Of a DNA stretch of 64,000 nucleotides, positions 1 to 55,241 are shown piece after piece. Each line of letters starts with the position of its first letter. The stretch's first letter is position 1. Origin of the DNA: Minisyncoccota bacterium. GTDB lineage: Bacteria > Patescibacteriota > Minisyncoccia > Phycocordibacterales > JABAAK01. The stretch lies in the NCBI GenBank assembly GCA_965222235.1, contig OZ244939.1, positions 323,396 through 387,395 on the forward strand, in the 5' to 3' direction. The notes under the pieces are model-generated. The model worked only from the letters and a program-made list of their open reading frames with translations, had not been told where the DNA came from and made no database searches. A program made the position numbers and the translations under genes.

Positions 1-171
1 AATCCGCGTGCCGTCATTGCCGTATGCGACATGCTGCACGTTGACCTTGTGACCGGCCGGCAGAGCAAGCTCAAATGCGACCGGAATGAAGCCGTCGGAT
101 TCCTGTGCGGATACGGTTGTGCCGCACCAGCAAAGGAAGACAGCGCATACCGCTGCTGGTATGTTTTTCAT
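1..171 (-). CDS. Secreted protein, N-terminal fragment (gene runs off the window start). Translation MKNIPAAVCAVFLCWCGTTVSAQESDGF... has a signal peptide with a VSA/QE cleavage site.
   Basis: ATG at 171 on the minus strand, with a GAGGGGG Shine-Dalgarno 7 nt upstream. Hydrophobic h-region and AxA-like cleavage site. The frame stays open to position 1. It lies downstream of the left copy of the 40-bp promoter element. Confidence 0.5.
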   Translation of the reverse strand, partial: MKNIPAAVCAVFLCWCGTTVSAQESDGFIPVAFELALPAGHKVNVQHVAYGNDGTRI

Positions 172-225
172 GTTCAACCCCCTCGCTGTTGGGAACCATT
201 CCACGCCCACAAAACAGGCTGGATT

Positions 226-265
226 CTAGTATATATATTACAATATATCTATATTTAAGTCAATA
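226..265 (-). promoter_or_regulatory. Copy 1 of a 40-bp element carrying a sigma70-like promoter (-35 TTGACT, 17-nt spacer, -10 TAATAT) that fires leftward toward the ORF at 171.
   Basis: Exact reverse complement of 1183-1222. Read on the minus strand it gives TTGACT-N17-TAATAT with an inferred start about 55 nt upstream of the ATG at 171. Confidence 0.45.
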
Positions 266-340
266 CACCGTTCATTGCATATTTTGTTAATATGTTGTAT
301 AATATGTTTACATGCTCTTTTGACAACATGGAGAAAAACC

Positions 341-1084
341 ATGCTCCCAGCCACAAAAAAGGCGCTGAAATACATCGGCTCCGTGCTGCTGTGCAGTCTG
401 GCGATCGTTGGTGCTGCATACCTGACGATAATCTGTGATCTGTGGCAGACGACAGATGATGTCTCGGTCACGGTGATCCAAACGCCACCTGTCGTAGAAG
501 ACATCGCCGTACCCGTCAGGGTTACGAAGGTGGAGGTGTTTGAAACGCTATCTTCCTGCGGCACATATTCAGAAATCCTGTATATTCAGGATGGTTTGGA
601 TATGACGGGCGAACCCGTCTACCGGCCCGAGAACAACAAACAGAATATCCGGGCATGGGAATGCGGGATGCGGGATGCGCTGAAACGTATTCTCTCGCAG
701 GCAAGAATCAAGGTGGTGGTTTTTGACCCCCACAAGCAGGTTATTGACCGGCACCCGGTTCTTCCGTACCTCAAAGGATTCCCACCGGTTGCGGAGGGAA
801 TGGAGCAGTACCTCCTTCGGGGCATCGGCCCGCGCGAGGACTGGATGTTACAGCGATATCAGGTGCTCAGCACGCCGCTGTGCCTGGAACGCCTGTCATC
901 TCTGGGGTGGAACCGGAACGGTACCATTGACTCGTGCACCTTTCTTGCTGTGCAGGGCGCTGAGGGTATTCGGAAGAACACCTTTCAATCCCTGCAGACC
1001 AGGAAGATCGCGCCTGGGTACTGGCCGGATCTCAGCATCAGGGAGGTACAGCTGTTTTTCGGCCTCCCGATGCGGAGGATATGA
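341..1084 (+). CDS. Hypothetical protein with one N-terminal transmembrane anchor (about 248 aa)
   Basis: ATG at 341 preceded by GGAGAAAAACC. Its own promoter is TTGCAT-N17-TATAAT at about 275-303. Hydrophobic segment SVLLCSLAIVGAAYLTII. A rho-independent terminator follows. Confidence 0.6.
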   Translation: MLPATKKALKYIGSVLLCSLAIVGAAYLTIICDLWQTTDDVSVTVIQTPPVVEDIAVPVRVTKVEVFETLSSCGTYSEILYIQDGLDMTGEPVYRPENNKQNIRAWECGMRDALKRILSQARIKVVVFDPHKQVIDRHPVLPYLKGFPPVAEGMEQYLLRGIGPREDWMLQRYQVLSTPLCLERLSSLGWNRNGTIDSCTFLAVQGAEGIRKNTFQSLQTRKIAPGYWPDLSIREVQLFFGLPMRRI

Positions 1085-1118
1085 TCTCGCAGTTGCGGAG
1101 GATGTGATCTCGCAGCCA

Positions 1119-1157
1119 AACTTAAAGAGCCCTTGCCACAAGGGCTCTTTTTTTGTG
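1119..1157 (+). terminator. Rho-independent terminator
   Basis: Hairpin AGAGCCCTTGCCACAAGGGCTCT followed by TTTTTTT. Confidence 0.6.
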
Positions 1158-1182
1158 AATTGCACACAAATATCTCACTATA

Positions 1183-1222
1183 TATTGACTTAAATATAGA
1201 TATATTGTAATATATATACTAG
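1183..1222 (+). promoter_or_regulatory. Copy 2 of the 40-bp element: -35 TTGACT (1185-1190), 17-nt spacer, -10 TAATAT (1208-1213), driving the ORF at 1254
   Basis: Perfect inverted duplicate of 226-265. The AAAGGAG ribosome-binding site and ATG at 1254 follow about 30 nt after the predicted start. Confidence 0.5.
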
Positions 1223-1253
1223 AGTCCACCCCCTACAGAAAGGAGCGGCTACC

Positions 1254-1646
1254 ATGAAAAAAACATCGTCCTCCCCGGAACCCGGGAGAACCGCTGTACG
1301 CAAAAGGTTGTTGTGGGTATTCATGATTCTCACCATCCTGTTCCTCATCACCTATTTCATTGCTGACAGGTATTACTATCATCCCGCAACCGGCGTCGGC
1401 ACGACCTCGCCGCCGGAGAGACCTCTCTATGAGGAACAGGCCCAGAAACAGCCTGCTGCGGACGGAAATCGCGAGGAGCCGGCGGCGGAAAACGCACAGC
1501 CCGTCATTCCGAAACTGGACCTCAAGATTCTCAATAGCCCCAAAAAAGATCTGGGCATGGGGACGCAGATGTACCACAGGAACGATGGGCGGGGGGTTGC
1601 CGCGCTGCTGATTCTTGCCACCATTGCAAAGATGTACCGTGGATAG
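1254..1646 (+). CDS. Small membrane protein (130 aa) with an N-terminal transmembrane helix and a Pro/Glu-rich tail
   Basis: Shine-Dalgarno AAAGGAG. TM segment LLWVFMILTILFLITYFIA. A terminator follows. Confidence 0.6.
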   Translation: MKKTSSSPEPGRTAVRKRLLWVFMILTILFLITYFIADRYYYHPATGVGTTSPPERPLYEEQAQKQPAADGNREEPAAENAQPVIPKLDLKILNSPKKDLGMGTQMYHRNDGRGVAALLILATIAKMYRG

Positions 1647-1720
1647 CTCGCCGGTGTACACTACTGTGTTCCGGAACCGTTGATCACCGCTCCATATCGG
1701 ACATTTGTAATGCTATATAA

Positions 1721-1752
1721 AGGCGCATCCGTCAGGGTGCGCCTTATTTTCA
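1721..1752 (+). terminator. Rho-independent terminator
   Basis: AAAGGCGCATCC-GTCA-GGGTGCGCCTT followed by ATTTT. A nearly identical hairpin sequence recurs at 2541-2566. Confidence 0.6.
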
Positions 1753-1848
1753 TACCCTGACTATCCCTCTATTTCTTTACTTTTTTAGATAATATGGTAT
1801 AATATAACCAGACCAAACCCAATCTCTTAACCGAGAGGAGTCCTGACC

Positions 1849-2523
1849 ATGGGAAAATCCTTGGTGAAATTTCACCCCAACCCCCCGATGGTGCCGTGGA
1901 CCCCGCAGCAGCGGCAACATGCACCGTCAGATTCACAGGATCCGCAGACCGAACAGCGGCACCCCTCACCCTCCCCGAAGAAGAACTGGTGGCTACGTGC
2001 AACCGCGAGCGTCACAGCTATCGCCCTGATGCTGACCGCCGGCTTCCTGTGGTGGCCGACGGACGGAATACAGTTCCTCGCCGCGCAGGCCGAGGTGGCG
2101 GAACGCCACAACGCCTGTGATGACATCCGCCATCTGTGGGAAGAGCACACGAGTGCCCAGACCCACAACATGAGGGACAATGTCATCACATTCGTCTCAC
2201 CGGTATGGTGCCAGTACAACTTCGTGCTGGGCCAAAAGTTCAGGGAGAAGATCAACGGCGGAGCGGCGGTCGCGGAACAGAGCCTTCACATCAGAACTGA
2301 GAGCTACAATCTCCAGGTCACCGCACAGTACTGCGCGGATGAATCCGAGTACCAGACCTCTTCTTCCCCGATCAGTCGTATGTGCACCGGACTGTGGAAA
2401 ATCATGAGAGGAAAACCGGAATCTGTCGTCCGCACAAACGCAAAGACGACCAGGAACGGACTTCCCCAGATCTACATGAAGGACATAGAGATGATCCTCG
2501 GGAAAAGAATCAGAATCCCCTGA
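1849..2523 (+). CDS. Hypothetical membrane-anchored protein (224 aa)
   Basis: Shine-Dalgarno GAGAGGAG and an extended -10 TGGTATAAT upstream. TM segment LRATASVTAIALMLTAGFLWW. Confidence 0.6.
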   Translation: MGKSLVKFHPNPPMVPWTPQQRQHAPSDSQDPQTEQRHPSPSPKKNWWLRATASVTAIALMLTAGFLWWPTDGIQFLAAQAEVAERHNACDDIRHLWEEHTSAQTHNMRDNVITFVSPVWCQYNFVLGQKFREKINGGAAVAEQSLHIRTESYNLQVTAQYCADESEYQTSSSPISRMCTGLWKIMRGKPESVVRTNAKTTRNGLPQIYMKDIEMILGKRIRIP

Positions 2524-2540
2524 CTTTTTTGACTCTTTAA

Positions 2541-2575
2541 AGGCGCATCCACAAGGGTGCGCCTGCTTTTTTTAA
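2541..2575 (+). terminator. Rho-independent terminator, possibly bidirectional
   Basis: AAAGGCGCATCC-ACAA-GGGTGCGCC followed by TGCTTTTTTT. It lies between the convergent genes ending at 2523 and at 2593. Confidence 0.6.
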
Positions 2576-2592
2576 ACACACTAACATTCGGG

Positions 2593-3273
2593 CTACGGAT
2601 AGCATATATCAGGAAATGTATCACAATCAATAGCTGGTGAATCCCCTTCGTCCGGACCTCCGACCGGCTGTCCACCGTCAACCGGCTGTCCACCGTCAAC
2701 CGGCTGTCCACCGTCAACCGGCTGTTCACCGTCAACCGGCTGTCCACCGTTATGAGGATTGGGTCTGAGGCCGTCATCAGGGGGAATGACTGTTCCGGGC
2801 GGATCAGTGGGGATGATTGTTCCGGGCGGATCAGTGGGGATGATTGTTCCGGGCGGATCAGTGGGGATGATTGTTCCGGGCGGATCAGTACCACCTTTCG
2901 GCAGGATAAAAGAAAATATCTTGGGGGATCCGACTCGTTCGCCGAACAGCACGAGGCTGAAGAAATGAACAATTCCCCACACACTAACCAACACGAAAAT
3001 GGCCAATAGTCCCCAGAATATTTTATTTCTCGCCTCTTCCAACTTATTACTCCCGCTATTTTGGATAAAAGTGGCAATACCCCAAAAGAAAAAGAGGAAC
3101 GCGGCGGTAACAGCCAAAATTATGAGAATATCAAATACGGTAAGAATCGCGGACAGGGTATCAACAACTCTCTGCACTTCCACCTCGGCGGGCGTTTTCG
3201 TTTGCCCGTGTGCGATGACTGGAAATGCGAGCGTAGTACTTCCGATGACAGAAAAAAGGTATATCTTTTTCAT
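2593..3273 (-). CDS. Secreted membrane protein with signal peptide, two hydrophobic helices (VirB2/TrbC-pilin-like architecture) and a C-terminal tandem-repeat tail (TDPPGTIIP x4, GGQPVD x5)
   Basis: Signal peptide MKKIYLFSVIGSTTLAFPVIAHGQ. The pattern FWGxxxF...KxxWGLLAIFVLVSVWGIV is shared with the paralogs at 7591, 8090 and 8413. The repeats are in frame. Confidence 0.6.
   Translation of the reverse strand: MKKIYLFSVIGSTTLAFPVIAHGQTKTPAEVEVQRVVDTLSAILTVFDILIILAVTAAFLFFFWGIATFIQNSGSNKLEEARNKIFWGLLAIFVLVSVWGIVHFFSLVLFGERVGSPKIFSFILPKGGTDPPGTIIPTDPPGTIIPTDPPGTIIPTDPPGTVIPPDDGLRPNPHNGGQPVDGEQPVDGGQPVDGGQPVDGGQPVGGPDEGDSPAIDCDTFPDICYP
2656..2895. repeat. Two in-frame tandem repeat blocks: an 18-nt unit x5 (about 2656-2745) and a 27-nt unit x4 (about 2788-2895)
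   Basis: GTCAACCGGCTGTCCACC repeated five times. TGATTGTTCCGGGCGGATCAGTGGGGA repeated four times. They encode the PVDGGQ and TDPPGTIIP peptide repeats of the gene at 2593-3273. Confidence 0.8.
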
Positions 3274-3361: not shown

Positions 3362-3727
3362 TCACCTTACCCCTCCCGGCGAAGTTGGAGACGGTCGCTC
3401 TACCTCTCCCGGCGTTCGCCGTACCAATTCATATTCACCGAACTCCACATCTTTTGGCTTCAGATCAATATCAGAGTTCGCCAGCCTGCTGATAAAGCTG
3501 AATATAGTGTAAATGGAGAATATGATGAAGATGCCGAATATAATGATGGCCATCCGTTTAAACATCTCTCCCCGCTCGCTCGCCGAGTCGGCATTGTGGA
3601 TAAATCGGATGGCGGCGAAAATAAATAGCAGGAGAGCCAGGAACGCCATGAGGGCGATGAGAGGATCAACTAAGATAGTGATAATCCTGTTTCCGAACTC
3701 TGCCGCTGAAAATGCGTATACTTCCAT
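3362..3727 (-). CDS. Small membrane protein with two transmembrane helices (VirB2/TrbC-like), 121 aa
   Basis: ATG at 3727. Hydrophobic segments ITILVDPLIALMAFLALLLFIFAAI and MAIIIFGIFIIFSIYTIF. It sits between the pilin genes and the gene at 2593. Confidence 0.5.
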   Translation of the reverse strand: MEVYAFSAAEFGNRIITILVDPLIALMAFLALLLFIFAAIRFIHNADSASERGEMFKRMAIIIFGIFIIFSIYTIFSFISRLANSDIDLKPKDVEFGEYELVRRTPGEVERPSPTSPGGVR

Positions 3728-4747: not shown

Positions 4748-4926
4748 ATATGCTGTTGGCAAATTAGTATGTGTGTAGTATACCCTATCTCACGGCTTCT
4801 ATGGAAAAACATACTGTCATTCGCATCTGAGGTGAATAAAACTGATCTTGTGCACATCATCAAGAATAAAAGAAAACACTCCCAACATGATTAGAAGTGT
4901 TCTCTTTATAAAGTGGGTTTTGTTGA

Positions 4927-5517
4927 CTACGATCCGACACCGTCTGTTCCATCATCACACTTAGCCGTATTTATGTGAGCAGCTGTTTCAGGTACACTGG
5001 TCAACTTACTGGTACCAACGCTACCGTATGAATCTAGGCAAAAGTATTTTGCGGAATCCTCAGATAATTGACCCCACACTGCCCAACCACCTTTATTAGA
5101 AGCACAACCATACCGTATTGTGTTACCAGTGACAGGAGCAGTGCCTTGAGCAACGGCTGCTGCAGCATCAGTGGCATCTACAAAAGGAGCTATGTACATA
5201 TTTACTTGTGTAGTACCGCTGCCCGTTGTTACAGTATTACTTGCCTGACCTTTTACTGTTTCAAATATAGTGTCCATAATACTTTTAACAGACTCAAGCG
5301 TACAGACTGTGCTCTGTTGGAAACTTGAAAGATTATTAGCTGCTTCATTACTCACCGCTGTAGCAACGGATCGCAAGTTAGATTTCAATGCTGCATCACT
5401 CGCCTTTGACCCTTGCCCGGTAAGCGAAACAACTACGATTGATGCCAATATACCAATGATGGCCACGACAATGAGCAACTCTATTAATGTGAATCCTTTT
5501 TTCATATTTATTTTCAT
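4927..5517 (-). CDS. Type IV pilin or pseudopilin (MKINMKKG|FTLIELLIVVAIIGILA)
   Basis: Prepilin motif. An alternative ATG lies at 5505. The C-terminal domain is Ser/Thr/Ala-rich and divergent. Confidence 0.75.
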   Translation of the reverse strand: MKINMKKGFTLIELLIVVAIIGILASIVVVSLTGQGSKASDAALKSNLRSVATAVSNEAANNLSSFQQSTVCTLESVKSIMDTIFETVKGQASNTVTTGSGTTQVNMYIAPFVDATDAAAAVAQGTAPVTGNTIRYGCASNKGGWAVWGQLSEDSAKYFCLDSYGSVGTSKLTSVPETAAHINTAKCDDGTDGVGS

Positions 5518-13463: not shown

Positions 13464-14066
13464 TTATACCACCGTGATAACGGAGACGGTTTCATCCGCG
13501 ATATCTTTCTTCTTAATCGTGCACTTCCCCACGACCTCCTCGGCATTCCCGATTTCCCCGCCGATATCTTTCTGCAGTTTCCTGTTGTCGCCGATGAGCA
13601 CTATTCTGCGAACACCGAGCGCCGACACCGCACCCGCGATATCAACCGCGGCCAGCCGCTTTTCCCCCGTTGTGTTACAAAAACAGACAAGCACATCTGC
13701 GGCGATGAACTGTGCCGCAATCTGATTTGTGTCCTCCCTGCCGTCTACATCGCCGAGCACCGCAATACGGATATCATCCCCGACAACCAGCCATGATGTC
13801 GTCTGCAGATCATTGTCGACAGTGACCGTCCCGCTGCTGACCCCCTGCAGTATCAGAGCGTCCTTCTCATACTCGCCCGCACCTGTGAACACTTTCTGCC
13901 CGTCTTCCGCGGTGAATACGCCGGACCACCCGGCGACGGGAACCGAATAGGTATTGAGAATAACGGCCGACAACGGCAGCTTCTTTTTCGCGGGCGGATT
14001 AACTGCCACGGTACCGGTTGAGAATTTCAGTGTGATGCCGGTCTCACCTGACTTGTGGATCTCCAT
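13464..14066 (-). CDS. Hypothetical protein (200 aa), possibly a degenerate MBL-fold relative
   Basis: ORF with a reasonable start; no catalytic HxHxDH motif. Function is not assignable from sequence alone. Confidence 0.45.
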   Translation of the reverse strand: MEIHKSGETGITLKFSTGTVAVNPPAKKKLPLSAVILNTYSVPVAGWSGVFTAEDGQKVFTGAGEYEKDALILQGVSSGTVTVDNDLQTTSWLVVGDDIRIAVLGDVDGREDTNQIAAQFIAADVLVCFCNTTGEKRLAAVDIAGAVSALGVRRIVLIGDNRKLQKDIGGEIGNAEEVVGKCTIKKKDIADETVSVITVV

Positions 14067-21689: not shown

Positions 21690-23840
21690 CTATACCCCCG
21701 GCCACGGCTCAACAATGAGCATATCCCGCCGCTTATATCTTCCGCTCGGCACGTGTCTCCATATCGCTTCCGTGACGAAGGGCATGAACGGATGAAGTGC
21801 TCTGAGCGATGATGTATAAATATACATGAGCATTGCTTTCTTTGACTGTTTTTCCGTTCCGTCGGCTCCGTGCAGCACTTCTTTGCTTTCTTCAATGATG
21901 CTGTCGGCAAATGTATGCCATATATAGTGATACAGTTTCTCGGCCGCAAGATGGTATCGATAGTGTTCCATATCATCTGTTATCTCCCGAAGCAATTCTT
22001 CCCACCCGCGCACATGCGTGGCGTCCGTTTCGGTATATTCCCCGCCGCCGCTGTCTCCCGCTTCCGTGAGCACGAACCGCCCGATATTCCATACCTTGTT
22101 TGCGAATTTTCTGTATCCTCTGATGTTATCTATTGAAAAATTGATGCTCTCTCCCGGCACGGAGCCGATAATATATGCCATGCGCACGGCGTCAACGCCG
22201 TATTCATTCACAACCTCAGTCGGATCAATAACATTACCCTTTGATTTGCTCATTTTCTCACCCTTCGCATCGCGTACCAGTCCGTGAAGATATATTATCC
22301 TGAACGGCACGGCACCGGTGCGGTACAGCCCGAGCATTATCATACGAAGGACCCAGAAGAATAGTATGTCGTGCCCCGTCTCCATGACATCGGTCGGATA
22401 ATGGCGTTTGTAATCCGGACCGTCCGGATACCCCAACGTTATGAACGGCCACTGCCCCGATGAGAACCAGGTGTCAAAAGTGTCTGCATCCGGCACAACG
22501 TCGCCGCCGCATGCAGCGCAGGATGAAATCGTACCGTCAATATCAACCATGCCGTTGCCGCATGCAGTGCAGATTTTCGCCGGTATCGGTATGCCCCAAA
22601 CAATCTGCCGGGAAATATTCCAGTCCTGAATATCGGTGAGCCAGTGAAGCGCCACCCGCTCATACCGCTCTGTTATAAAAGAAACTTCTTTTGCTGTAAT
22701 TGCCTGAACTGCTTTCTCCGCAAGCGGCTTCATTGATATGAACCACTGCTTTTTGAGCTGCGGTTCAATCTCCCGTCCGCACTTGTAACAGGTCGGTACC
22801 GTGTGTGTGTAGGTGTCGTCAACACGGACCAACAGCCCTTTTTTGCGCATACTCTCAACGAGCGGTCCGCGTACGTCACGGATATCCGTGCCGGCAAATG
22901 CTCCGGCGACCGGCAGCAGCTTCCCCCGCTCATCAATGATCTGCTCGTATTCCAGACCGTGCCGCTTGGCTATCTCCCAGTCAACTGCTGAATGCCATGG
23001 TGTTATGGTCATGACGCCGCTTCCTTTTTCCGGATCACCCGCCCTGTCCTTGATAATCGTCGCCGTCACTGTTCTGTTAATCCACGGCACTTCAATTTTT
23101 TGCCCGTGCTCATACTTGATATACCGCGCATCATCCGGATGCATCACCACATACTTGTCGCCGAACTTTGTCTCGGGACGAACGGTACCGATGACAAAGG
23201 GACCGTACTTGAAATAGTAGAAGGGGTCGTTCCGTTCCTCATACAGCAGCTCCAACTCGGAAAACCCGGTCTGATGTTTCGGACACCAGTGCACCGTGCG
23301 CAGGTTCCGGTACAGCAGTCCGTCTTTCTCCAACTGTGCAAATGTCGCGTACACCTGCTTTTTGACCCGATCGTCAAGCGTGAAGGTGTCGCGCGACCAG
23401 TCACAGCTCGCACCCAGCGCTCTGAGCTGATTCTGCATGTGTTTCTTGTTCTCCTGCGTAAACTGCAGAATTTCACCGTAGAGCTCTTCCCGCGAGAGGT
23501 TAAACCGTGACCGTCCTTCTTTCTCCAATTTTTTTTCATACACAATCTGTGTTTCAAACCCGGCGTGATCCGCCCCGGGAAGCCACAGCGCCCTCTTCCC
23601 CCGCATTCTTGCGTACCGAACCATCAGATCTTCCAGCGTGACGAACAGCGCATGACCGGCATGCAGTGATCCGTTCGCGTTCGGCGGCGGCATGATGACG
23701 GTGTACGGCTCTCCCGCCTCGGGCAGGTTGTCCGGATTGAAATACCCGCCTTTCTCCCACTGTGTATATATATCAGCTTCTTTTTTCGTATGATTGTATG
23801 GTTTCAAAAAATCCTCCGAGACGGTATGCGCTTTTTCCAT
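21690..23840 (-). CDS. valS: Valyl-tRNA synthetase (716 aa, lacking the C-terminal coiled-coil extension)
   Basis: PPPNANGSLHAGHAL (compare ValRS PPPNVTGSLHMGHA), KMSKSKGN, editing-domain segments and a C-terminal anticodon-binding helix region. Confidence 0.8.
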   Translation of the reverse strand: MEKAHTVSEDFLKPYNHTKKEADIYTQWEKGGYFNPDNLPEAGEPYTVIMPPPNANGSLHAGHALFVTLEDLMVRYARMRGKRALWLPGADHAGFETQIVYEKKLEKEGRSRFNLSREELYGEILQFTQENKKHMQNQLRALGASCDWSRDTFTLDDRVKKQVYATFAQLEKDGLLYRNLRTVHWCPKHQTGFSELELLYEERNDPFYYFKYGPFVIGTVRPETKFGDKYVVMHPDDARYIKYEHGQKIEVPWINRTVTATIIKDRAGDPEKGSGVMTITPWHSAVDWEIAKRHGLEYEQIIDERGKLLPVAGAFAGTDIRDVRGPLVESMRKKGLLVRVDDTYTHTVPTCYKCGREIEPQLKKQWFISMKPLAEKAVQAITAKEVSFITERYERVALHWLTDIQDWNISRQIVWGIPIPAKICTACGNGMVDIDGTISSCAACGGDVVPDADTFDTWFSSGQWPFITLGYPDGPDYKRHYPTDVMETGHDILFFWVLRMIMLGLYRTGAVPFRIIYLHGLVRDAKGEKMSKSKGNVIDPTEVVNEYGVDAVRMAYIIGSVPGESINFSIDNIRGYRKFANKVWNIGRFVLTEAGDSGGGEYTETDATHVRGWEELLREITDDMEHYRYHLAAEKLYHYIWHTFADSIIEESKEVLHGADGTEKQSKKAMLMYIYTSSLRALHPFMPFVTEAIWRHVPSGRYKRRDMLIVEPWPGV

Positions 23841-24199: not shown

Positions 24200-24311
24200 G
24201 TTCTGGCGACGAGCTACTCTCCCGCATAAGCAGTACCATCGCCCCTGGAGGACTTAACTTCCGTATTCGGAATGAGAACGGGTGTGACCCCTCCGGTTTC
24301 ATCACCAGAAC
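24200..24311 (-). rRNA. rrf: 5S ribosomal RNA
   Basis: Reverse complement reads GTTCTGGTGATG...CCGTTCTCATTCCGAATACGGAAGTTAAG...GGGAGAGTAGCTCGTCGCCAGAAC. Helix I pairs. Ends are within 3 nt. Confidence 0.8.
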
Positions 24312-24384
24312 AAAAAGGCGGAATATATTTTCCGCATAATATCTATTGCAATAACCATGGGCAATTCTAACGAAACAGAACGCC

Positions 24385-27358
<2,974 letters not shown>

Positions 27359-29783: not shown

Positions 29784-30029
29784 TTATGACATGCTCTGCA
29801 CATCGGTCATCAATTTCTGCATTTCTGGCTGGTATTTCTTCATAACGGCCATGGTTGCGAGCATCTCATCTTGTCCCTGCTTCTTTTTTTCCTGTATTTC
29901 CTTCGCTATATTTTCAAACAGCGCGGGGTTCCGCTCATACATACTCATAAACATGGCTTTCTGACTCTCGGGCAGGTTCTTCATCTGTCGCTCAATCATT
30001 TTACGGGCAATAAAGCTTTTAACTCCCAT
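29784..30029 (-). CDS. Small Lys/Glu-rich hypothetical protein (about 82 aa)
   Basis: The longer computed ORF to 30179 reads through antisense tRNA-Ala (MYCRVDPTGFEPATSG...). The start was reset to ATG 30029, with an alternative at 30047. No ribosome-binding site. Confidence 0.35.
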   Translation of the reverse strand: MGVKSFIARKMIERQMKNLPESQKAMFMSMYERNPALFENIAKEIQEKKKQGQDEMLATMAVMKKYQPEMQKLMTDVQSMS

Positions 30030-30092
30030 ATATATTGAGTATACCATATACAGTATGCGACAGAACACAGCGGTGGTATACTGGAGGCATTG

Positions 30093-30166
30093 GGGCCCGT
30101 AGCTCAGTTGGCTAGAGCGCCGGTTTTGCACTCCGGAGGTCGCAGGTTCAAATCCTGTCGGGTCCA
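30093..30166 (+). tRNA. tRNA-Ala (anticodon UGC)
   Basis: Full cloverleaf: acceptor GGGCCCG/CGGGTCC with the G3:U70 Ala identity pair, D-arm GCTC/GAGC, anticodon loop TTTGCAC, T-loop TTCAAAT and discriminator A. No encoded CCA. Confidence 0.9.
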
Positions 30167-30592
30167 CTCTACAGTACAAATAGGTACACCCTCCCTGTCG
30201 GTCGGATGTGACTTGTTCGTGGTGCGTCGTTTCGGCACGTCATAGGGGGCTTTCCAGCCGTTTCTCGGTTTTTCATCTCTCACAGAGTTAAATATTTAGT
30301 ACTTTAATTTATACTTCCATACCTATTTGCAAAGAATAAATAAAGCACCCCACCAGCGCAACCATAGAGTAAAGCCCTATGAACTGATGGGGTGCTTCAA
30401 AAACTTTACCTATACCTATGGTTGCTTTTATAGTATATGATAAAAACACTTTTTGTGCATTCAAATTTAATTTTTTGTAGACAGGTTTCTTTTGTCATCA
30501 TCTTTTTGCTATACTATCAATAGCAACCAAAAGTATCGCCCGACTATCATATGGGAATATCCCATATTGTTAGTAAGATAATTAGGTGGAAT

Positions 30593-31162
30593 ATGGCGAT
30601 AAAAAAACATAAAACACATTTTGTATTTGCAAAAAAAGACATCAATAAATTAGTAGAAAAATATGATGTCGGAATGATTGAAGATAAGGATGCTGAAATC
30701 CTAACTGTTTTTTTTATTAGAAGTGGGAAAAGATCAAAGATACAGAAAGAAAATATAAAATCTTTTGAAATAAGCAATACTGGTGATGAATTTCCAAAAA
30801 AAATCTGTAATGTCTGTCATAAATTATTTAAAACTTCTCATTTTGAAAAAAATCAAAATGCAAAAAATAACAGAACTGTCAGAAGACCCTCTTGCAGAGA
30901 TTGTAGAAAAAATATTGATGGGGTACAAGTTAACATTAAAATAAGAAAAAAAATCTTAAAAACAAAACCTCATAAAATTCCATTTGAATGCCCCATCTGT
31001 CACAAAAGAACTATTGCAGGTGTCACTAGTAAAGTGGTGATTGACCATGACCATAAAACAGGAAAAATACGTGGGTGGATTTGTGATAGTTGTAATACGG
31101 GAATAGGAAGATTTAAGGATAATGTAGAAATTTTAAAGAGAGCCATCAGGTTTATCAAATAA
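30593..31162 (+). CDS. HNH-type (T4 endonuclease VII-like) nuclease with two Cys4 zinc sites; candidate type II restriction endonuclease
   Basis: AGGTGG ribosome-binding site then ATG 30593. CNVCHK...CRDCRKN zinc ribbon, then CPICHKR...VIDHDHKTGKIRGWICDSCNTGIGRF (Endonuclease_7/HNH signature DHDH...G.RG.LC..CN). Very AT-rich. Convergent with and overlapping the MTase. Confidence 0.6.
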   Translation: MAIKKHKTHFVFAKKDINKLVEKYDVGMIEDKDAEILTVFFIRSGKRSKIQKENIKSFEISNTGDEFPKKICNVCHKLFKTSHFEKNQNAKNNRTVRRPSCRDCRKNIDGVQVNIKIRKKILKTKPHKIPFECPICHKRTIAGVTSKVVIDHDHKTGKIRGWICDSCNTGIGRFKDNVEILKRAIRFIK

Positions 31163-31993
31163 AGATATATTCAACGTAAGGTGTTTGATTCTTTCCACTG
31201 CAATATCAACATATTTCTGTGAAATATCACAACCAAGATACAGACGATTATTTTTTTGCGCCATTTTACAAGTTGTTCCTGATCCACACATTGGATCAAA
31301 AACCAAATCCCCTTTATTGGTCCAAGAAAGAATATGATCCTCAGCTAACTTTTCTGGAAAAACTGCTGGGTGCTCAAAGGCAATCTTATCACTTGTTGAT
31401 CCATGCAACCCAACTGCATATTCCCATATGTTTGTTCTTGTCTTTTTATTTTTTAACATTTTTAGTGTTTTTTTGTTTATACCATCCGGACCTTTGTTGT
31501 GGGTAAGCATCTCTAAACCCTGCCTAACAGTATCTACTTCAATAGGATTAAATGTTGTCGGTTTCCCCTTACTTAACACAAACATAAATTCAAAACAATT
31601 TGTGTATCCATTAGAACGCATAAACGGTGTATTTTTCTTTTTATACACCATCACATCATGCACATTAAACCCAATTTCTTGAAATGTTATTGCCTGTTTA
31701 AAACTTGTGAGGCTCTTGTTTCCATTTTTCACTTTATCACCAACAACCCAAACAAGTACTCCCCCTTCTTTTGTTATTCTAAACAATTCAGGTACCATGG
31801 ATTCAAAATCAAAACGATACCCCTCATAGTTTCTTAATTCATCATAAGGAGGTGAAGTAACTGTTAAATCAATAAAACAATCTGGAAAATCTTTCATTAC
31901 CTCCATGGCATTGCCACACAAAATACTGTTTACTGGTGATTTATTGCTGTTGGTTGTCACCCTTTTTACAGGCATTTTTACTAAATCGCTCAT
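31133..31993 (-). CDS. Beta-class N4-cytosine or N6-adenine DNA methyltransferase
   Basis: Motif IV TSPPYDEL precedes motif I FDPMCGSGTT (beta permutation, N6_N4_Mtase family). 286 aa. Confidence 0.8.
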   Translation of the reverse strand: MSDLVKMPVKRVTTNSNKSPVNSILCGNAMEVMKDFPDCFIDLTVTSPPYDELRNYEGYRFDFESMVPELFRITKEGGVLVWVVGDKVKNGNKSLTSFKQAITFQEIGFNVHDVMVYKKKNTPFMRSNGYTNCFEFMFVLSKGKPTTFNPIEVDTVRQGLEMLTHNKGPDGINKKTLKMLKNKKTRTNIWEYAVGLHGSTSDKIAFEHPAVFPEKLAEDHILSWTNKGDLVFDPMCGSGTTCKMAQKNNRLYLGCDISQKYVDIAVERIKHLTLNISLFDKPDGSL

Positions 31994-32151
31994 ATGTTCA
32001 GTATACCTAATTAGAACACATCCATACTGGGTTATCTACAAAAATCATTTAATATATTAAATTAACCTTATTACAATAAGCTCATATATAAAGATACAAA
32101 ATATCTAAATATATACAATATCCTGTATACAAGTGTATTAATTTTCTATTT

Positions 32152-32682
32152 TCATAATTTTTCCCTGATCTTAGATTTCAGGAAAATTAATTGTGATGAT
32201 GATGTATAAAATTTCCGGGATATATCGTAAAGAAGCAGAGGAATGACAACAAAAGAAAACAAAATCAAAAGATTCATATACTCAAAATTAAATAAGAAAG
32301 CGACAAGTAGAACGAAGTACAAAATGATAATAAAAAACAGATGGGATATCATAAATGGAACGAAAATATCAAAAGCCTTATCTTTTTCTTTAACCATTTC
32401 CTTCCCCTTTTTATCTACTATTTCCCACAACGAAGCAAAAAACTCACTGGAAGACATACGCTGATTCATAAAAAATCCTATGAAGATAATGTATACAGAA
32501 AACACAAGGAAAAACAGAGAAAAAATATCACTCGTCTCAATGAAATCAAAATTTAATTCAACAAAGAAAAATTTGTCAAGCAGAAAAACAATAAAAACCA
32601 GTGCCGATGTAAAATATAGTTGACGCTTTGCGGTAACCCAAAAATTTATAACTAATTGCATCAGAGTTATGTTTTCTTGCAT
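32152..32682 (-). CDS. Hypothetical four-helix membrane protein in the AT-rich islet
   Basis: Alternative starts at 32745 or 32730. Hydrophobic helices LVFIVFLLDKFFFV, IFSLFFLVFSVYIIFIGFF, HLFFIIILYFVLLVAFLF and LLILFSFVVIPLLLY. No recognisable domain. Confidence 0.5.
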   Translation of the reverse strand: MQENITLMQLVINFWVTAKRQLYFTSALVFIVFLLDKFFFVELNFDFIETSDIFSLFFLVFSVYIIFIGFFMNQRMSSSEFFASLWEIVDKKGKEMVKEKDKAFDIFVPFMISHLFFIIILYFVLLVAFLFNFEYMNLLILFSFVVIPLLLYDISRKFYTSSSQLIFLKSKIREKL

Positions 32683-32907
32683 GCCACCATTATACCACCT
32701 ATATGCGTAAAGCGTACGAATAAATTGCATCGTCTTTAGAAGCACGCAGTGCCGACCTTACGCGGATGCGTCGCCGCCAGTGTAAGAAACACGGTACGCC
32801 ACACAGCGACAGGCGTGTCAATACGCCAACGCAGTCAGTATATCGCCTTCAGAACTGCACAATCTTATTAACGCAACCTTGGATAACCTATGTACATTAT
32901 ATTGTTA

Positions 32908-33468
32908 CTAAAGAGCAACAGATATTGATATATGTGTATTTCTCTGCAGAAGAGTTAAGTCAGCCCTCTTATTTAATTCCCTTAACAAATTCTCCAAAAA
33001 ATACAAATGGTACGGTGCAAGTATGTCAGAGTTGGAGATGTCCATTTTTTCATTATACTTAAATTTTACCACAACATCTTCACATTTAGACAATATTTTT
33101 TTAAGGTTTTCTTCTGGAAAATTTCCTGCTCCGGCATCTTTTCTGGCTTTACACAAAGTTTCAAAACCTTTTTTTCTATGCTCATCATCATGAAAGATAT
33201 CTTGAATATATATTTTTGTCTCATCATTCAAGTTTTCAAAGAACTCTAATGTATTGTGATTATGCTCAGCTTTTTTATCATTTTCAATCATCCAAAACAT
33301 TTTCATAATTAACTCAAGACAAATAGTATTAAGAAGAATTTGTGTTAAAAAATAGTGAGTGGGACCTGTATCTGGGTCTACTACCATTCCCAAAACTTTA
33401 GAAGATCTTAAAAAGCTATCAGCACGATATGAGAATCTCTGTATCTGACTTTTTACTTCATTATTCAT
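32908..33468 (-). CDS. Hypothetical soluble protein (186 aa) in the AT-rich islet
   Basis: ATG at 33468; the upstream extension into the GC-rich region is rejected. Lys/Glu/Asn-rich. No recognisable domain. Confidence 0.5.
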   Translation of the reverse strand: MNNEVKSQIQRFSYRADSFLRSSKVLGMVVDPDTGPTHYFLTQILLNTICLELIMKMFWMIENDKKAEHNHNTLEFFENLNDETKIYIQDIFHDDEHRKKGFETLCKARKDAGAGNFPEENLKKILSKCEDVVVKFKYNEKMDISNSDILAPYHLYFLENLLRELNKRADLTLLQRNTHISISVAL

Positions 33469-33784
33469 ACAAGAAACAATAACAAATGAAAAGTATAAAA
33501 GCAAATATCTGAATGAGCGGAGCGAATACGGGCCCGTAGTGAAGCGGAGCGGCATTTGGCGGCACGCTTCGTAAAGTTCTGGTGTTGGTTGCAGCGTGCG
33601 GGTAGGTGGCGACACGGTTTTGGTCAGAGTACTGAGCGGGTCAAAGGGTGCGCTGTCGTCAAAATATTCTTTCAGTTTCCGTGCTATGGTTTGCGTATGG
33701 GGCTCTGAAGTCCACCAGACAGTACAATAATTGTTATCACAGCGGTACTCGCGGAAGCAGTGTTAATTGGGGTATTTCTATTAT

Positions 33785-36031
33785 CTATTCTTCATTCTTT
33801 TTGTCTGGGCGTAGGTTAATTCTTTCAATTTCTCTCAGATTTCTCAGATTGTTTGCCTTAATTGCCGATGGTGAAATGGTGTAAAGTACATTGTCCATAT
33901 ACAACGAACGATCTATGGTAAACAAATGAGAATAATTGTATGTATAGTCGTCCTCTTTTGATTCCCTTTCAAAGTGTGTTATCCTCCCCCGCTCTTTAAT
34001 GCCGGAGGGAGAGATGGTGAACACGAGCGCGCCGATCCATTGTGTATCATGCTGTATGTCGCGCGACATGGCGCGCTTTTCCTCAACGAGTGTCACGGGC
34101 AGCACCAGCAGTTCCCTTTCTTTGTCAAACAGGAATGCCCGGTGGTCGTGGATAACGCTTGTGCTTGTTCCGCGCGCGCCGATTTCGTACGATGCTTTCT
34201 CCTTCGGATTGTGCACATCGGAGACATCAAATAGCGAAACTTTCACGCCTTTGAACGATACCCATCTACTGTTGTCAGTGGTCGACCTGCCGACACCGAT
34301 GAGATAGTTCGCGTCATACGGATGCAGGTAGTCGGAAACGCCGGGTATTTTCAGTTCTCCCAGCACCTGCGGATTGGTTGGGTCGGAAAGATCTATCACA
34401 AACAACGGATCAACCTGCACGAAGGTCACCATATACAGCCGGTCGCCAATGAAACGGGTGGAATAAATACGCTCGCCTTTCGCAAGATCTTCCAGTGAGC
34501 CGACGGTCTTCATATTTTTATCCAGCACAAAGAGATGATTGAGGGACTTGTTTCCGCCGTGCGTCGTGGTTGCAATTCTAAAATATCCATTGTACTCATC
34601 CATAGAAAATTGATTGAGCGGCCTACCGACAACCTCCCCTTTGGAGACATACTGTATCGCACCATTGTTCACCCCTATCTTGTGCACAATGGTTTTTTGC
34701 CGTTCTTTATCATGCTTTCGTCTGATGTCCTCTGCTTCCTCCTCAAAACCGCTGAGAATAGTTGCGGCGGTTTCAGGGTTAATAGAACTGATCCATTCTT
34801 CAAGAATCCCCCCAATTGTTACATATTTCAACTCAATCTCATGAACTGTTTCATCCTCGTGTGATATGGAATCCCTGATCTTTTGTATTTCGGCTTTGGT
34901 GGCATTGGGAAGCTTCGGCAAAAGTATATTCAGCGAATCATCAAGCAACTCTAATTCGCTATATTGATTTTCATACTGGTAATTGATATAGAGGTTATCG
35001 CGGGACATAAAAAGATTTGAGGAGTGCCCGAGTAGGAATACTTTATTACGCACGGTGCCGTCGGTGATGCGGAGGGAAACAATATTGGTGAAGACATACG
35101 ACCGACCGGACGATCCGAAGTGATGTATCTCCGGGAAGTCCCGCTGTCGCGGAGAGAATTGCGGCATTCTCACGCCATCGTCAAAAAAACGTACGGGGGT
35201 CTGCGCAACCATATACACATACTCGCCGATCATTCGTGAATTGTTGTATTGCCCGTCAAACAGGAGATTGTGTTGCAACACCGGGTGTGCCCGATTCGTT
35301 ATGTTGTAAACAAGAATTCTTGTTTTTTCGCCGTCATTGTTACTTGTCGGTATGAATATAACGGCTGTGTTATCGTTAATGTACAATTCATTCGGATTCC
35401 AATGCCCGCCGAATTCACTGAGCGATGTGGTAGAAACAATCTCAGCGTTATATGGCGGGAATGCATCCACAATTACCAATCTTTTTTCATTTAAAAGGTA
35501 GATGTATTTTCCGTCATTTTTGATGAAGTCCGCTTCATCAACACCTGCCACCTGAATGTTCGTCGTTGAATAATCGTCGGCTAGGTCTTGAACCGCCGCA
35601 CCGACGGACACCTGTGCCGTATCAAGAGTTATTCCAGCTGAGGTTGTCAGCGACTCTACGCGCGACACCGAAGAAACCCGCTTCTGATACGTTTGGTCAT
35701 GCAAATACTGCGATTGACTTTCCCACAGGAATGCCTCCAGCTCTTTTTGTGAGGAGAAAGTTTGCAGGGTATTCTCTTTCCATTTTTTTTGACTAACATC
35801 CTCACTGTCTTTCGGAACGTCTTTCAGCGACTCTGCGGGTGCCGTATCATTTGGAGCCGGTGCCTCGGTCGGTATTTTCTCCGGTGTTTCTTTTTGTGTT
35901 GCTGTATCGGATGTTTTCTCATCCCCGTTATTGTAAGTATCTGATGTTTTCAGGATGTCCAGAGCACTATATAGCAGCACTATCCCGATTATTATTATAA
36001 ACAAGACAAAAAAGGGGGACATCTTTTTCAT
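33785..36031 (-). CDS. Signal-anchored secreted beta-propeller-domain protein (about 750 aa)
   Basis: N-terminal anchor MKKMSPFFVLFIIIIGIVLLYSAL and a Thr/Pro/Glu-rich linker. The C-terminal 500 aa has repeated YxxGDxLY/V-type blades resembling the archaeal/CPR 'beta_propel' family. Confidence 0.5.
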   Translation of the reverse strand: MKKMSPFFVLFIIIIGIVLLYSALDILKTSDTYNNGDEKTSDTATQKETPEKIPTEAPAPNDTAPAESLKDVPKDSEDVSQKKWKENTLQTFSSQKELEAFLWESQSQYLHDQTYQKRVSSVSRVESLTTSAGITLDTAQVSVGAAVQDLADDYSTTNIQVAGVDEADFIKNDGKYIYLLNEKRLVIVDAFPPYNAEIVSTTSLSEFGGHWNPNELYINDNTAVIFIPTSNNDGEKTRILVYNITNRAHPVLQHNLLFDGQYNNSRMIGEYVYMVAQTPVRFFDDGVRMPQFSPRQRDFPEIHHFGSSGRSYVFTNIVSLRITDGTVRNKVFLLGHSSNLFMSRDNLYINYQYENQYSELELLDDSLNILLPKLPNATKAEIQKIRDSISHEDETVHEIELKYVTIGGILEEWISSINPETAATILSGFEEEAEDIRRKHDKERQKTIVHKIGVNNGAIQYVSKGEVVGRPLNQFSMDEYNGYFRIATTTHGGNKSLNHLFVLDKNMKTVGSLEDLAKGERIYSTRFIGDRLYMVTFVQVDPLFVIDLSDPTNPQVLGELKIPGVSDYLHPYDANYLIGVGRSTTDNSRWVSFKGVKVSLFDVSDVHNPKEKASYEIGARGTSTSVIHDHRAFLFDKERELLVLPVTLVEEKRAMSRDIQHDTQWIGALVFTISPSGIKERGRITHFERESKEDDYTYNYSHLFTIDRSLYMDNVLYTISPSAIKANNLRNLREIERINLRPDKKNEE

Positions 36032-36493: not shown

Positions 36494-37456
36494 TTACCCG
36501 TACCACCGTTCGCCGATTATCGTAAATAGTGCCATCCTGATGTAGACACCGTTCGCTGCCTGTGCGAAGTAGCGGGCCCTTGGATCTGTGTCCACTTCAG
36601 TGCTTATCTCATTCAGGCGGGGCAGTGGATGAAGTATAATGGCATCCTTTTTCATTGATGACGCTATTTCCGGTGTCAGAATGTAGGTGTCTTTTGCTCG
36701 TTCGTATTCCTGCAAATTGTCAAATCGTTCTTTTTGTATTCTTGTCATGTAACAGACATCGGCATCTTTAACAGCACGGGCAAGTGAGTTAGTTTCTGTG
36801 AATCGGGTATCCTTTTCTTTCAGAAAATTTCTCAGTGAATCTTTTATTCGTGAATTGTCCGGTGAGACGAAATTGAAACTGTTTCCCGGGAAATCCGCGA
36901 GTAGGTATACAAGAGATTCCGCCGTCCGTCCGCGCAGCAGGTCGCCGACCACTACTATATGCATATTCTCAGTTCTGCCGATGTCTTCGTGTATTGTGAA
37001 GAGGTCAAGCAGTGATTGTGTCGGATGTTGATCCGTTCCGTTACCCGCGTTTATCAGTGGTATTTTTGCAGTTTGTATTGCCTCATAGATTGAATTGTTG
37101 TCCGTATGTCTGAGAACGATAAAATTGCCGTAGAAATTTGAGACGGCTATTGAATCGGTCAATGACTCTCCTTTTGCCGCGGATGACATTGTTTTCGCGT
37201 TTTCCGTTGAGATACATCGCATGTTCAATTTATGCGCCGCATTCTCAAAGGAAAATCTTGTTCTTGTTGAGGGTTCATAAAAGAGGTTTATCGCTATCTT
37301 GTCTTTCAAAAAAGAAGGAGGTGCTACCTCCTCATTTTTATATTGTTTCGCTGTTGCAAATATTTTTTGAATAAATTGTTTATCAAACTGTCTCGTATGC
37401 AATATATGCTTTCTCGGATCTGTCGTGATTATTTTTTCCTTGACCTCCTTACTCAC
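36494..37456 (-). CDS. pyrB: Aspartate carbamoyltransferase catalytic subunit
   Basis: FYEPSTRTRFSFE carbamoyl-phosphate site, HPTQSLLD and HPLPRLNEI (Asp site). GTG start. Confidence 0.8.
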   Translation of the reverse strand: MSKEVKEKIITTDPRKHILHTRQFDKQFIQKIFATAKQYKNEEVAPPSFLKDKIAINLFYEPSTRTRFSFENAAHKLNMRCISTENAKTMSSAAKGESLTDSIAVSNFYGNFIVLRHTDNNSIYEAIQTAKIPLINAGNGTDQHPTQSLLDLFTIHEDIGRTENMHIVVVGDLLRGRTAESLVYLLADFPGNSFNFVSPDNSRIKDSLRNFLKEKDTRFTETNSLARAVKDADVCYMTRIQKERFDNLQEYERAKDTYILTPEIASSMKKDAIILHPLPRLNEISTEVDTDPRARYFAQAANGVYIRMALFTIIGERWYG

Positions 37457-55157: not shown

Positions 55158-55241
55158 TGCCTCCTCCGTCGGTTGTGAAAAACCTAACCTAATATATATT
55201 GTACAATATAATAAAATATTGTCAATGCTCTCCTGTAATGT

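What the first reader, a model, noticed from the sequence alone, without database searches (positions are those of the whole stretch)
226..1222. Perfect 40-bp inverted duplication acting as two outward-facing promoters around a self-contained gene cassette
226-265 is the exact reverse complement of 1183-1222. Each copy contains TTGACT-N17-TAATAT. The right copy sits about 30 nt before a Shine-Dalgarno plus ATG (1254, plus strand). The left copy, read on the minus strand, sits about 55 nt before a Shine-Dalgarno plus ATG (171, minus strand) that opens a secreted-protein gene running off the window. The 957-bp interval between them holds one gene (341-1084) with its own different promoter and terminator. 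Identical promoter modules on two unrelated divergent genes suggest either a shared regulon operator and promoter or a recently duplicated mobile promoter cassette. The 40-bp inverted repeats are also a substrate for inversion of the intervening segment.
Basis: seen in the sequence. Interest (0 to 1): 0.5.

Follow-up and report, generated by a model that had tools for sequence, protein, structure and literature searches.

The report
Duplicated promoter flanking an orphan gene
Two mirror-image copies of one promoter-sized stretch of DNA sit on either side of a small stand-alone gene and face two unrelated neighbouring genes; this looks like an ordinary recent local duplication of a promoter, not a mobile element or a genetic switch.

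Summary
The inverted repeat is real. It is exact over 41 nt (225-265 / 1183-1223) and runs to 49 nt with 2 mismatches (217-265 / 1183-1231). It is the longest inverted repeat in the window, and the arms lie 917 bp apart, not 957.

Each arm carries TTGACT-N17-TAATAT, the promoter layout seen elsewhere at this locus, and faces outward towards a Shine-Dalgarno site and ATG. The gene between the arms (341-1084) is a stand-alone unit. Its own promoter is conserved in three distant relatives, although the protein is only 26-33% identical.

None of those relatives has the flanking repeat. No other copy exists in the window or in three public DNA collections.

The enclosed protein is a membrane-anchored, cysteine-bearing orphan, not a recombinase or transposase. 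There is no target-site duplication. No site-specific recombinase was found among 53 ORFs scanned.

Flipping the segment would leave both outward promoters unchanged.

Best reading: a recent, lineage-specific inverted duplication or gene conversion of a promoter, in a rearrangement-prone cluster of surface-protein genes of a small, probably CPR-type, genome. This corresponds to a two-copy "putative mobile promoter". It is real but ordinary, so interest is low.

The parts
217..265 (-). Left arm of the inverted repeat (exact over 225-265). Read on the minus strand it is a promoter copy: -35 TTGACT at 263-258, -10 TAATAT at 240-235, and an alternative -10 TATACT at 233-228.
1183..1231 (+). Right arm of the inverted repeat (exact over 1183-1223). 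Promoter copy: -35 TTGACT at 1185-1190, -10 TAATAT at 1208-1213, and an alternative -10 TATACT at 1215-1220.
1200..1215 (.). Inner AT-only palindrome ATATATT-NN-AATATAT overlapping the -10 hexamer. It also lies at 233-248 in the left arm. It could be an operator or simply AT-rich spacer.
   Evidence: found only at these two places in the window
1..171 (-). 5' end of the left outward gene. It has an N-terminal Sec-type signal peptide (MKNIPAAVCAVFLCWCGTTVSA|QE) and runs off the window. Its Shine-Dalgarno site GAGGGGG is the complement of 178-184.
   Evidence: no family match; no database hit
275..303 (+). Own promoter of the enclosed gene, TTGCAT-N17-TATAAT. It is conserved upstream of the homologues in L003, L004 and L007.
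341..1084 (+). Enclosed gene of 247 aa. It has an N-terminal membrane helix and four cysteines conserved across the three aligned full-length sequences. It is an orphan family with three distant relatives found and no known domain.
1071..1115 (+). Tandem duplication with a 23-bp period (two 22-nt copies differing at one base) spanning the stop codon of the enclosed gene.
   Evidence: D5
1124..1150 (+). Intrinsic terminator of the enclosed gene: a 12-bp stem followed by a T run.
1254..1646 (+). Right outward gene of 130 aa, a membrane protein with a low-complexity middle. It has no homologue in the five related loci. Its Shine-Dalgarno site AGGAG is at 1241-1245.
1720..1745 (+). Terminator of the right outward gene. 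A near-copy of this hairpin follows the next gene at 2540-2565.
   Evidence: (D3)

Best explanation
The two arms are two copies of one ordinary sigma-70-type promoter of this organism. A segment of about 49 bp, running from 2 nt upstream of the -35 hexamer to about +1/+10, was recently duplicated in inverted orientation, or two copies were homogenised by gene conversion. As a result the left secreted-protein gene (minus strand, ATG 171) and the right small membrane-protein gene (plus strand, ATG 1254) are each driven by the same promoter. The stand-alone gene 341-1084 sits between the copies with its own promoter and terminator.

Shown: the repeat itself; the promoter-like anatomy and its position relative to both start codons; the autonomy and conserved promoter of the enclosed gene; the absence of the repeat in relatives; and the varying gene order of this neighbourhood among relatives.

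Inferred: that the arms are active promoters; that identity reflects recent duplication or conversion rather than selection on every base; and that the event belongs to the local rearrangements seen in this cluster. The repeat is a by-product with the side effect of co-expressing two unrelated envelope genes. It is not a programmed switch or a transposon.
For: - The repeat is exact over 41 nt and reaches 49 nt at 96%, with 0 expected by chance.
- The unit begins 2 nt before TTGACT and ends just past the expected transcription start. Identity stops abruptly on the inner side and decays on the outer, transcribed side.
- The hexamers have 17-nt spacing with TG directly before the -10, the same layout as the enclosed gene's promoter. 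That promoter keeps 21 invariant positions, concentrated in the -35 to -10 stretch, across four loci whose proteins are only 26-33% identical. The layout is therefore under selection in this lineage.
- Each arm is the only promoter-like element between the neighbouring terminator or promoter and the outward Shine-Dalgarno site and ATG.
- The two outward proteins are unrelated.
- The homologues of the enclosed gene in L003, L004 and L007 have no such flanking repeat.
- Gene order around the enclosed gene differs in every relative. The homologue of 1849-2523 is inverted or relocated, so rearrangements are frequent here.
- Other small recent duplications lie within 1.5 kb: a tandem duplication of 23-bp period at 1071-1115 and a copied terminator hairpin at 1720-1745 / 2540-2565.
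- In L007 the two divergent promoters beside the homologue form a 33-nt, 82% inverted repeat.
- Two-copy families of near-identical promoters upstream of non-homologous genes are common in prokaryotes: 2771 of 4074 families, with mean 92% identity and 66 nt (PMC3488235).
Against: - No transcription data exist, so promoter activity is inferred from sequence alone.
- Only 64 kb of a 641-kb contig could be examined, so further copies elsewhere in the genome cannot be excluded.
- Both mismatches fall in the outer 9 nt and none in the inner 41. By my own rough estimate this has a probability of about 0.03 under uniform divergence. It hints at constraint or gene conversion on the core and leaves room for a bound regulator.
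- The duplication mechanism over a 917-bp distance is not identified.
- No close relative is available to date the event or to say which copy is the original.
Confidence: 0.6

Rival explanations
1. Invertible segment (inverton). The 41-bp arms are recombination sites, and the 917-bp segment with its gene flips between two orientations, as in the Salmonella Hin H segment or other phase-variable cassettes.
For: A perfect inverted repeat flanks a segment of about 0.9 kb next to surface and secreted protein genes. The size resembles the Hin H segment (about 1 kb, from my own knowledge). Gene order and orientation vary among relatives at this locus. Short-read contigs break in the repeat, so orientation is unresolved in that assembly.
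Against: No serine or tyrosine recombinase domain was found among 53 ORFs scanned across the window. The enclosed protein is a membrane-anchored orphan with no recombinase domain. The outward promoters lie inside the arms, so inversion would change neither promoter-gene pairing. The enclosed gene carries its own promoter and terminator and would be expressed either way. The three relatives lack the repeat. The enclosed gene has the same orientation relative to the pilin cluster in all four loci.
Confidence: 0.08
2. Shared operator. The identity is maintained because a dimeric regulator binds the palindrome ATATATT-NN-AATATAT over the -10 hexamer and co-regulates the two outward genes. This is compatible with an origin by duplication.
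For: A 7+7 palindrome overlaps the -10 hexamer in both arms and occurs nowhere else in the window. Both mismatches lie outside the 41-nt core.
Against: The palindrome is AT-only, in a lineage whose promoter spacers are generally AT-rich ATAT runs. No regulator gene is nearby. Selection for a binding site does not explain identity at all 41 positions. There are only two sites.
Confidence: 0.15
3. Terminal inverted repeats of a small mobile element, either a non-autonomous transposon or an insertion-sequence remnant, carrying 341-1084 as a passenger gene.
For: The 49-nt terminal-style repeats bound a unit of about 1.0 kb. That is similar in size to the genuine IS481-like element at 53859-54820, which has 26-bp perfect terminal repeats.
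Against: No transposase lies inside. There is no target-site duplication at either the 41-nt or the 49-nt boundary (read directly). The arms are unrelated to the IS481-like terminal repeats. There is only one such unit in the window, and the core is absent from three public collections. The gene sits at the same syntenic place, next to the pilin cluster and without repeats, in L003, L004 and L007. The family has no viral or phage relatives.
Confidence: 0.04
4. Footprint of, or substrate for, one past inversion. The inverted duplication was created at the breakpoints of a local inversion (staggered breaks or template switching), or it mediated a one-off homologous inversion during the reshuffling of this cluster. 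It has no present function beyond the promoters it carries.
For: The homologue of 1849-2523 is on the opposite strand or the opposite side of the enclosed gene in relatives. The right arm lies where the block 1254-2523, which is absent or inverted in relatives, begins. Other slippage-type duplications lie nearby.
Against: The relatives are too distant (26-67% protein identity) to reconstruct events. The enclosed gene itself is not inverted relative to the pilin genes in any locus. This is a statement about origin and overlaps with the best explanation.
Confidence: 0.13

Closest known systems
Putative mobile promoters (promoter propagation or reuse; Matus-Garcia, Nijveen and van Passel 2012, PMC3488235 and PMC3575422)
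   Same: Near-identical non-coding sequence lies within about 100 nt upstream of two non-homologous coding sequences in one genome. It is a two-member family, which is the commonest class in that survey, and the identity is high.
   Different: The repeat is 49 nt, one short of that survey's 50-nt cut-off. The copies are only 917 bp apart and inverted around a third gene. There is no sign of mobility beyond this single duplication.
Invertons and programmed invertible segments (Hin/Gin-type and tyrosine-recombinase switches)
   Same: Inverted repeats bound a segment of about 1 kb near surface-protein genes.
   Different: No recombinase was found. The promoters lie in the arms rather than between them, so flipping changes nothing. 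The repeat is not conserved in relatives.
Insertion sequences and MITE-like elements with terminal inverted repeats, for example the IS481-like element at 53859-54820 of this window
   Same: Terminal-style inverted repeats bound a unit of about 1 kb.
   Different: There is no transposase and no target-site duplication. It is a single copy, and the cargo gene is syntenic in relatives that lack the repeats.
Palindromic divergent promoter regions, for example the 33-nt, 82% inverted repeat between the divergent genes in L007 at 2852-2975
   Same: Two outward-facing promoters are mirror images of each other, in the same gene neighbourhood of a related organism.
   Different: Here the copies are identical, and a whole gene separates them rather than 58 nt.

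Membership tests
Putative mobile promoter (duplicated promoter) doublet | [quoted passage not shown] | tested here: met
   The arms end 22 nt (1231 to 1254) and 45 nt (217 to 171) from the start codons.
Putative mobile promoter (duplicated promoter) doublet | The downstream coding sequences are not homologous | tested here: met
   BLASTP of the 57 visible residues of the left gene against the 130-aa right gene gave no alignment at E <= 100. Only the N-terminus of the left gene is visible.
Putative mobile promoter (duplicated promoter) doublet | At least 50 nt at 80% identity or more (the survey's operational cut-off) | tested here: not met
   The repeat is 49 nt at 96%, of which 41 nt are exact. 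It misses the length cut-off by 1 nt and exceeds the identity cut-off.
Putative mobile promoter (duplicated promoter) doublet | The sequence acts as a promoter | not testable with these tools
   There is only consensus anatomy and the conservation of the same layout at the enclosed gene's orthologous promoters.
Inverton / programmed invertible segment | Inverted repeats bound the segment | tested here: met
Inverton / programmed invertible segment | A site-specific serine or tyrosine recombinase is encoded in or near the segment | tested here: not met
   Pfam scans of 53 ORFs across the window found no resolvase/invertase or phage-integrase domain. Only two IS481-like DDE transposases were found, about 53 kb away. 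The DNA to the left of the window was not visible.
Inverton / programmed invertible segment | Both orientations are present in a population | not testable with these tools
   The Logan k=31 contigs break inside the repeat (L001 = 236-1212, L002 = 1194-2692).
Inverton / programmed invertible segment | Inversion changes which gene a promoter drives, or changes a coding sequence | tested here: not met
   The outward promoters lie inside the arms and stay in place. The enclosed gene has its own promoter and terminator.
Insertion sequence / MITE-like transposon | Terminal inverted repeats | tested here: met
Insertion sequence / MITE-like transposon | A transposase is encoded inside (autonomous element), or there are multiple copies (non-autonomous element) | tested here: not met
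   The enclosed protein has no Pfam, NCBIfam or PADLOC hit. There is no other copy in the window or in three collections.
Insertion sequence / MITE-like transposon | Target-site duplication flanks the repeats | tested here: not met
   The flanks are ...AAAACA|217 and 1231|CCTACAG. At the 41-nt boundary they are GGAT and GTCC. There are no direct repeats.

The most novel reading that the evidence does not exclude
Copying of regulatory modules may have assembled a new expression unit. The orphan gene 1254-1646 has no homologue in any related locus. It is framed by an exact copy of the neighbour's promoter (right arm) and a near-copy of the next gene's terminator hairpin (1720-1745 versus 2540-2565). 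This could be a snapshot of how a reduced-genome bacterium wires a newly arisen or newly acquired membrane-protein gene into expression. A weaker alternative is that the 41-bp arms allow recombinase-independent flipping of the enclosed cassette.
Probability: 0.1. Interest if true: 0.5.

Novelty: new member of a known kind. Interest (0 to 1): 0.22.

Why it matters
If the arms are active promoters, two unrelated envelope genes in a very small genome are co-expressed from identical promoters created by one local duplication. That is a neat but unsurprising example of promoter reuse. The practical points are modest. The repeat breaks short-read assemblies at this locus, and the orientation of 266-1182 needs reads that span the arms. 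The conserved promoter of the enclosed gene gives a usable promoter consensus (TTGCAT/TTGACT, a 17-nt AT-rich spacer ending in TG, then TATAAT) for this poorly studied lineage.

Tried and rejected
- Further copies: I searched the 29-nt core of the repeat in genome contigs, metagenome contigs and viral contigs and found no match. The source genome itself is evidently not in those collections, so copies elsewhere in it could not be counted.
- Plasmids and phages: blastn of window 1-3000 found nothing relevant.
- Homologues of the enclosed protein: the word-indexed search found only itself. The exhaustive HMMER search found two weak relatives. A profile of the three found nothing in genome contigs, metagenome contigs or viral contigs, nothing in phage records and nothing in PDB sequences.
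- Structure: the AlphaFold model from the 3-sequence alignment had pLDDT 54. That is too poor for a fold search, so none was run.
- Left flank: I tried to recover the full left gene and the DNA left of the window from its 57-residue N-terminus. The search returned no candidate.
- Closer relatives: I used the best-conserved neighbour (3362-3727) to look for them. The nearest is only 67% identical, so the duplication cannot be dated or polarised.
- Internal structure: each arm folded as single-stranded DNA is no better than shuffles, z = -0.3.
- A long-range RNA stem enclosing the gene was rejected. No plausible transcript contains both arms, because each lies outside the enclosed gene's promoter-terminator span and faces outward.
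- An assembly artefact was rejected on the independent Logan contigs.

Full report
**The observation**

The sequence at 226-265 is the exact reverse complement of 1183-1222, and shuffles of the window give 0 such matches. An exact-repeat scan shows the perfect match is 41 nt, 225-265 / 1183-1223. It is the longest exact inverted repeat in the 64-kb window. It continues outward to 49 nt (217-265 / 1183-1231) with mismatches at 219 and 224. Beyond that, similarity stops on both sides. A short-word blastn found no partial copy elsewhere in the window.

The arms are 917 bp apart.

An independent short-read assembly (Logan, ERR13605531, seen in two samples) has one contig equal to window 236-1212 and another equal to 1194-2692. 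The repeat is therefore real and breaks a k=31 assembly graph. The orientation of the inner segment cannot be read from those contigs.

**Genomic context**

The window is chromosomal. It carries gyrA, ftsA/ftsZ, several aminoacyl-tRNA synthetases, and 23S and 5S rRNA genes. The source contig is 641,294 bp.

The first 8 kb is a cluster of small secreted or membrane proteins. It includes three PF18895 T4SS-pilin-like proteins and three type IV pilin-like proteins. From my own knowledge, this set and the genome size suggest a CPR/Patescibacteria-type bacterium. No tool confirmed the taxonomy.

**Anatomy of the locus**

- Each arm holds TTGACT-N17-TAATAT. TG lies directly before the -10 hexamer, and a second -10 candidate, TATACT, lies 7 nt downstream.
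- The exact repeat starts 2 nt before the -35 hexamer and ends about at the expected transcription start. The 49-nt version reaches about +10.
- The right arm is followed by AGGAG (1241-1245) and ATG 1254. This opens a 130-aa membrane protein that ends before a terminator at 1720-1745.
- The left arm, read on the minus strand, is followed by GAGGGGG and the ATG at 171. This opens a protein with a clear signal peptide that runs off the window.
- The two outward proteins are unrelated over the visible part.
- No other promoter-like sequence is available to either gene.
- Between the arms lies a complete unit: promoter TTGCAT-N17-TATAAT (275-303), GGAG (330-333), coding sequence 341-1084, and terminator 1124-1150.

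**The enclosed gene**

The protein is 247 aa with an N-terminal membrane helix. It has no Pfam, NCBIfam or PADLOC match and no match to PDB sequences.

Among 5.8 billion clustered proteins only itself was found. An exhaustive HMMER search of 1.8 billion representatives found two weak relatives, at E = 1.5e-5 and 6e-4. tblastn found a third in L007.

The 3-sequence alignment shows four invariant cysteines behind the membrane anchor, which suggests an extracytoplasmic domain. The structure model was too poor to use, with pLDDT 54.

Nothing suggests a recombinase or transposase.

**Comparison with relatives**

In L003, L004 and L007 the homologue lies in the same neighbourhood, beside the same pilin-like genes. 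The best-conserved of those is 58-67% identical in these three loci. The homologue keeps the same orientation relative to them.

None of the three loci has a comparable repeat flanking the homologue.

The homologue's own promoter is conserved: 21 invariant columns, concentrated in the -35 to -10 stretch. The proteins meanwhile are only 26-33% identical. This is the best available evidence that this hexamer-and-spacer layout is a working promoter in the lineage. The repeat arms have the same layout.

The neighbours of the gene differ in every locus. The homologue of window 1849-2523 is on the other strand to the right in L003, and on the left side in L004 and L007. Gene 1254-1646 has no counterpart anywhere. 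The region is therefore prone to rearrangement.

Within 1.5 kb of the arms there are other small duplications. One is a tandem duplication of 23-bp period across the stop codon of the enclosed gene (1071-1115). Another is a near-copy of the terminator hairpin (1720-1745 and 2540-2565). In L007 the two divergent promoters beside the homologue form a 33-nt, 82% inverted repeat 58 nt apart.

**Most likely explanation**

A promoter-sized segment was recently duplicated in inverted orientation, or two copies were homogenised by gene conversion. Two unrelated outward genes now share one promoter.

General promoter constraints cannot explain the identity. By my own hand alignment, the arm and the enclosed gene's promoter share only about 58% of positions.

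This matches the class described as putative mobile promoters. In that survey two-copy families were the majority, with mean 92% identity and 66 nt. [quoted passage not shown] The present repeat is 1 nt short of that survey's 50-nt cut-off.

Both mismatches lie in the outer 9 nt. That leaves some room for constraint on the 41-nt core. One possible cause is a regulator binding the palindrome ATATATT-NN-AATATAT, which occurs only in the arms. The palindrome is AT-only and sits in AT-rich promoter DNA.

**Rivals**

- Programmed inverton: unlikely. No serine or tyrosine recombinase domain was found among 53 ORFs scanned across the window. The enclosed protein is not a recombinase. The promoters sit inside the arms, so flipping changes neither promoter-gene pairing. 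The enclosed gene is expressed from its own promoter either way. The relatives lack the repeat.
- Transposon with terminal repeats: largely refuted. There is no transposase, no target-site duplication and only a single copy. The arms are unrelated to the 26-bp terminal repeats of the genuine IS481-like element at 53859-54820. The gene is syntenic in relatives, and the family is absent from viral and phage data.
- Origin at an inversion breakpoint, or one-off use as an inversion substrate: possible, and compatible with the best explanation. The relatives are too distant to test it.
- Assembly artefact: excluded by the independent contigs.

**What remains open**

- Whether more copies exist in the other 577 kb of the genome.
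- Whether both orientations occur in reads.
- Where transcription starts.

The most novel reading still open concerns the orphan gene 1254-1646. It may have acquired both a copied promoter and a copied terminator from its neighbours, making a small case of expression-unit assembly. I give this about 10%.

**Verdict**

The feature is an ordinary, lineage-specific two-copy promoter duplication, not a new kind of element.

Noticed in passing
window 1071-1115: A tandem duplication with a 23-bp period (TGCGGAGGATATGATCTCGCAG / TGCGGAGGATGTGATCTCGCAG) spans the stop codon of gene 341-1084. It is a recent slippage-type event next to the inverted repeat.
   Followed up: no
window 1713-1763 and 2533-2583: Two direct copies of a terminator hairpin with identical 11-bp stems (AAGGCGCATCC...GGGTGCGCCT) follow the consecutive genes 1254-1646 and 1849-2523. 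The copies are 75% identical over 51 nt, and none is expected by chance.
   Followed up: partly
window 275-303; L003 about 4931-4960; L004 about 4920-4950; L007 2852-2884 (minus): The promoter of the orphan gene is better conserved than its protein. It keeps 21 invariant positions, concentrated in the -35 to -10 stretch, against 26-33% amino-acid identity. This gives a usable promoter consensus for the lineage.
   Followed up: yes
L007 2852-2884 / 2943-2975: In a related metagenome contig, the two divergent promoters beside the homologue of the enclosed gene form a 33-nt, 82% inverted repeat with 58 nt between the arms.
   Followed up: partly
window 53859-54820 and 55081-56241: An IS481-like element has 26-bp perfect terminal inverted repeats (53859-53884 / 54795-54820) around a 304-aa rve_3 transposase. 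A second IS481-like transposase gene lies just beside it on the other strand.
   Followed up: partly
window about 30000-34000: A low-GC island (0.35 against about 0.52) lies next to tRNA-Ala (30093-30167). It encodes an endonuclease VII / His-Me finger protein and an N6/N4 DNA methylase, and is probably horizontally acquired.
   Followed up: no
window 2656-2910 (inside gene 2593-3273, minus strand): Two tandem repeat arrays of 18-nt and 27-nt units, about five copies each, lie in a T4SS-pilin-like gene. They encode GGQPVD and PTDPPGTII repeats. L004 has a comparable repeat-rich gene at the same position.
   Followed up: no
window 42282-42810 / 43137-43665: A 529-bp exact direct repeat lies inside the 1603-aa gene for a surface protein with Ig-like domains (41359-46170, minus strand).
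   Followed up: no
window-wide, for example upstream of 2593-3273, 13464-14066, 21690-23840, 31133-31993, 36494-37456, 56253-58985: Roughly ten of 43 genes have a TATACT-like or TACACT-like box ending 6-9 nt before the start codon and no Shine-Dalgarno site, which suggests frequent leaderless mRNAs. The genes at the inverted repeat instead have leaders with Shine-Dalgarno sites.
   Followed up: no
window 24201-27349: The 23S and 5S rRNA genes are present without an adjacent 16S gene in the window. The tRNA-Ala at 30093 is on the opposite strand. The rRNA genes appear to be unlinked.
   Followed up: no
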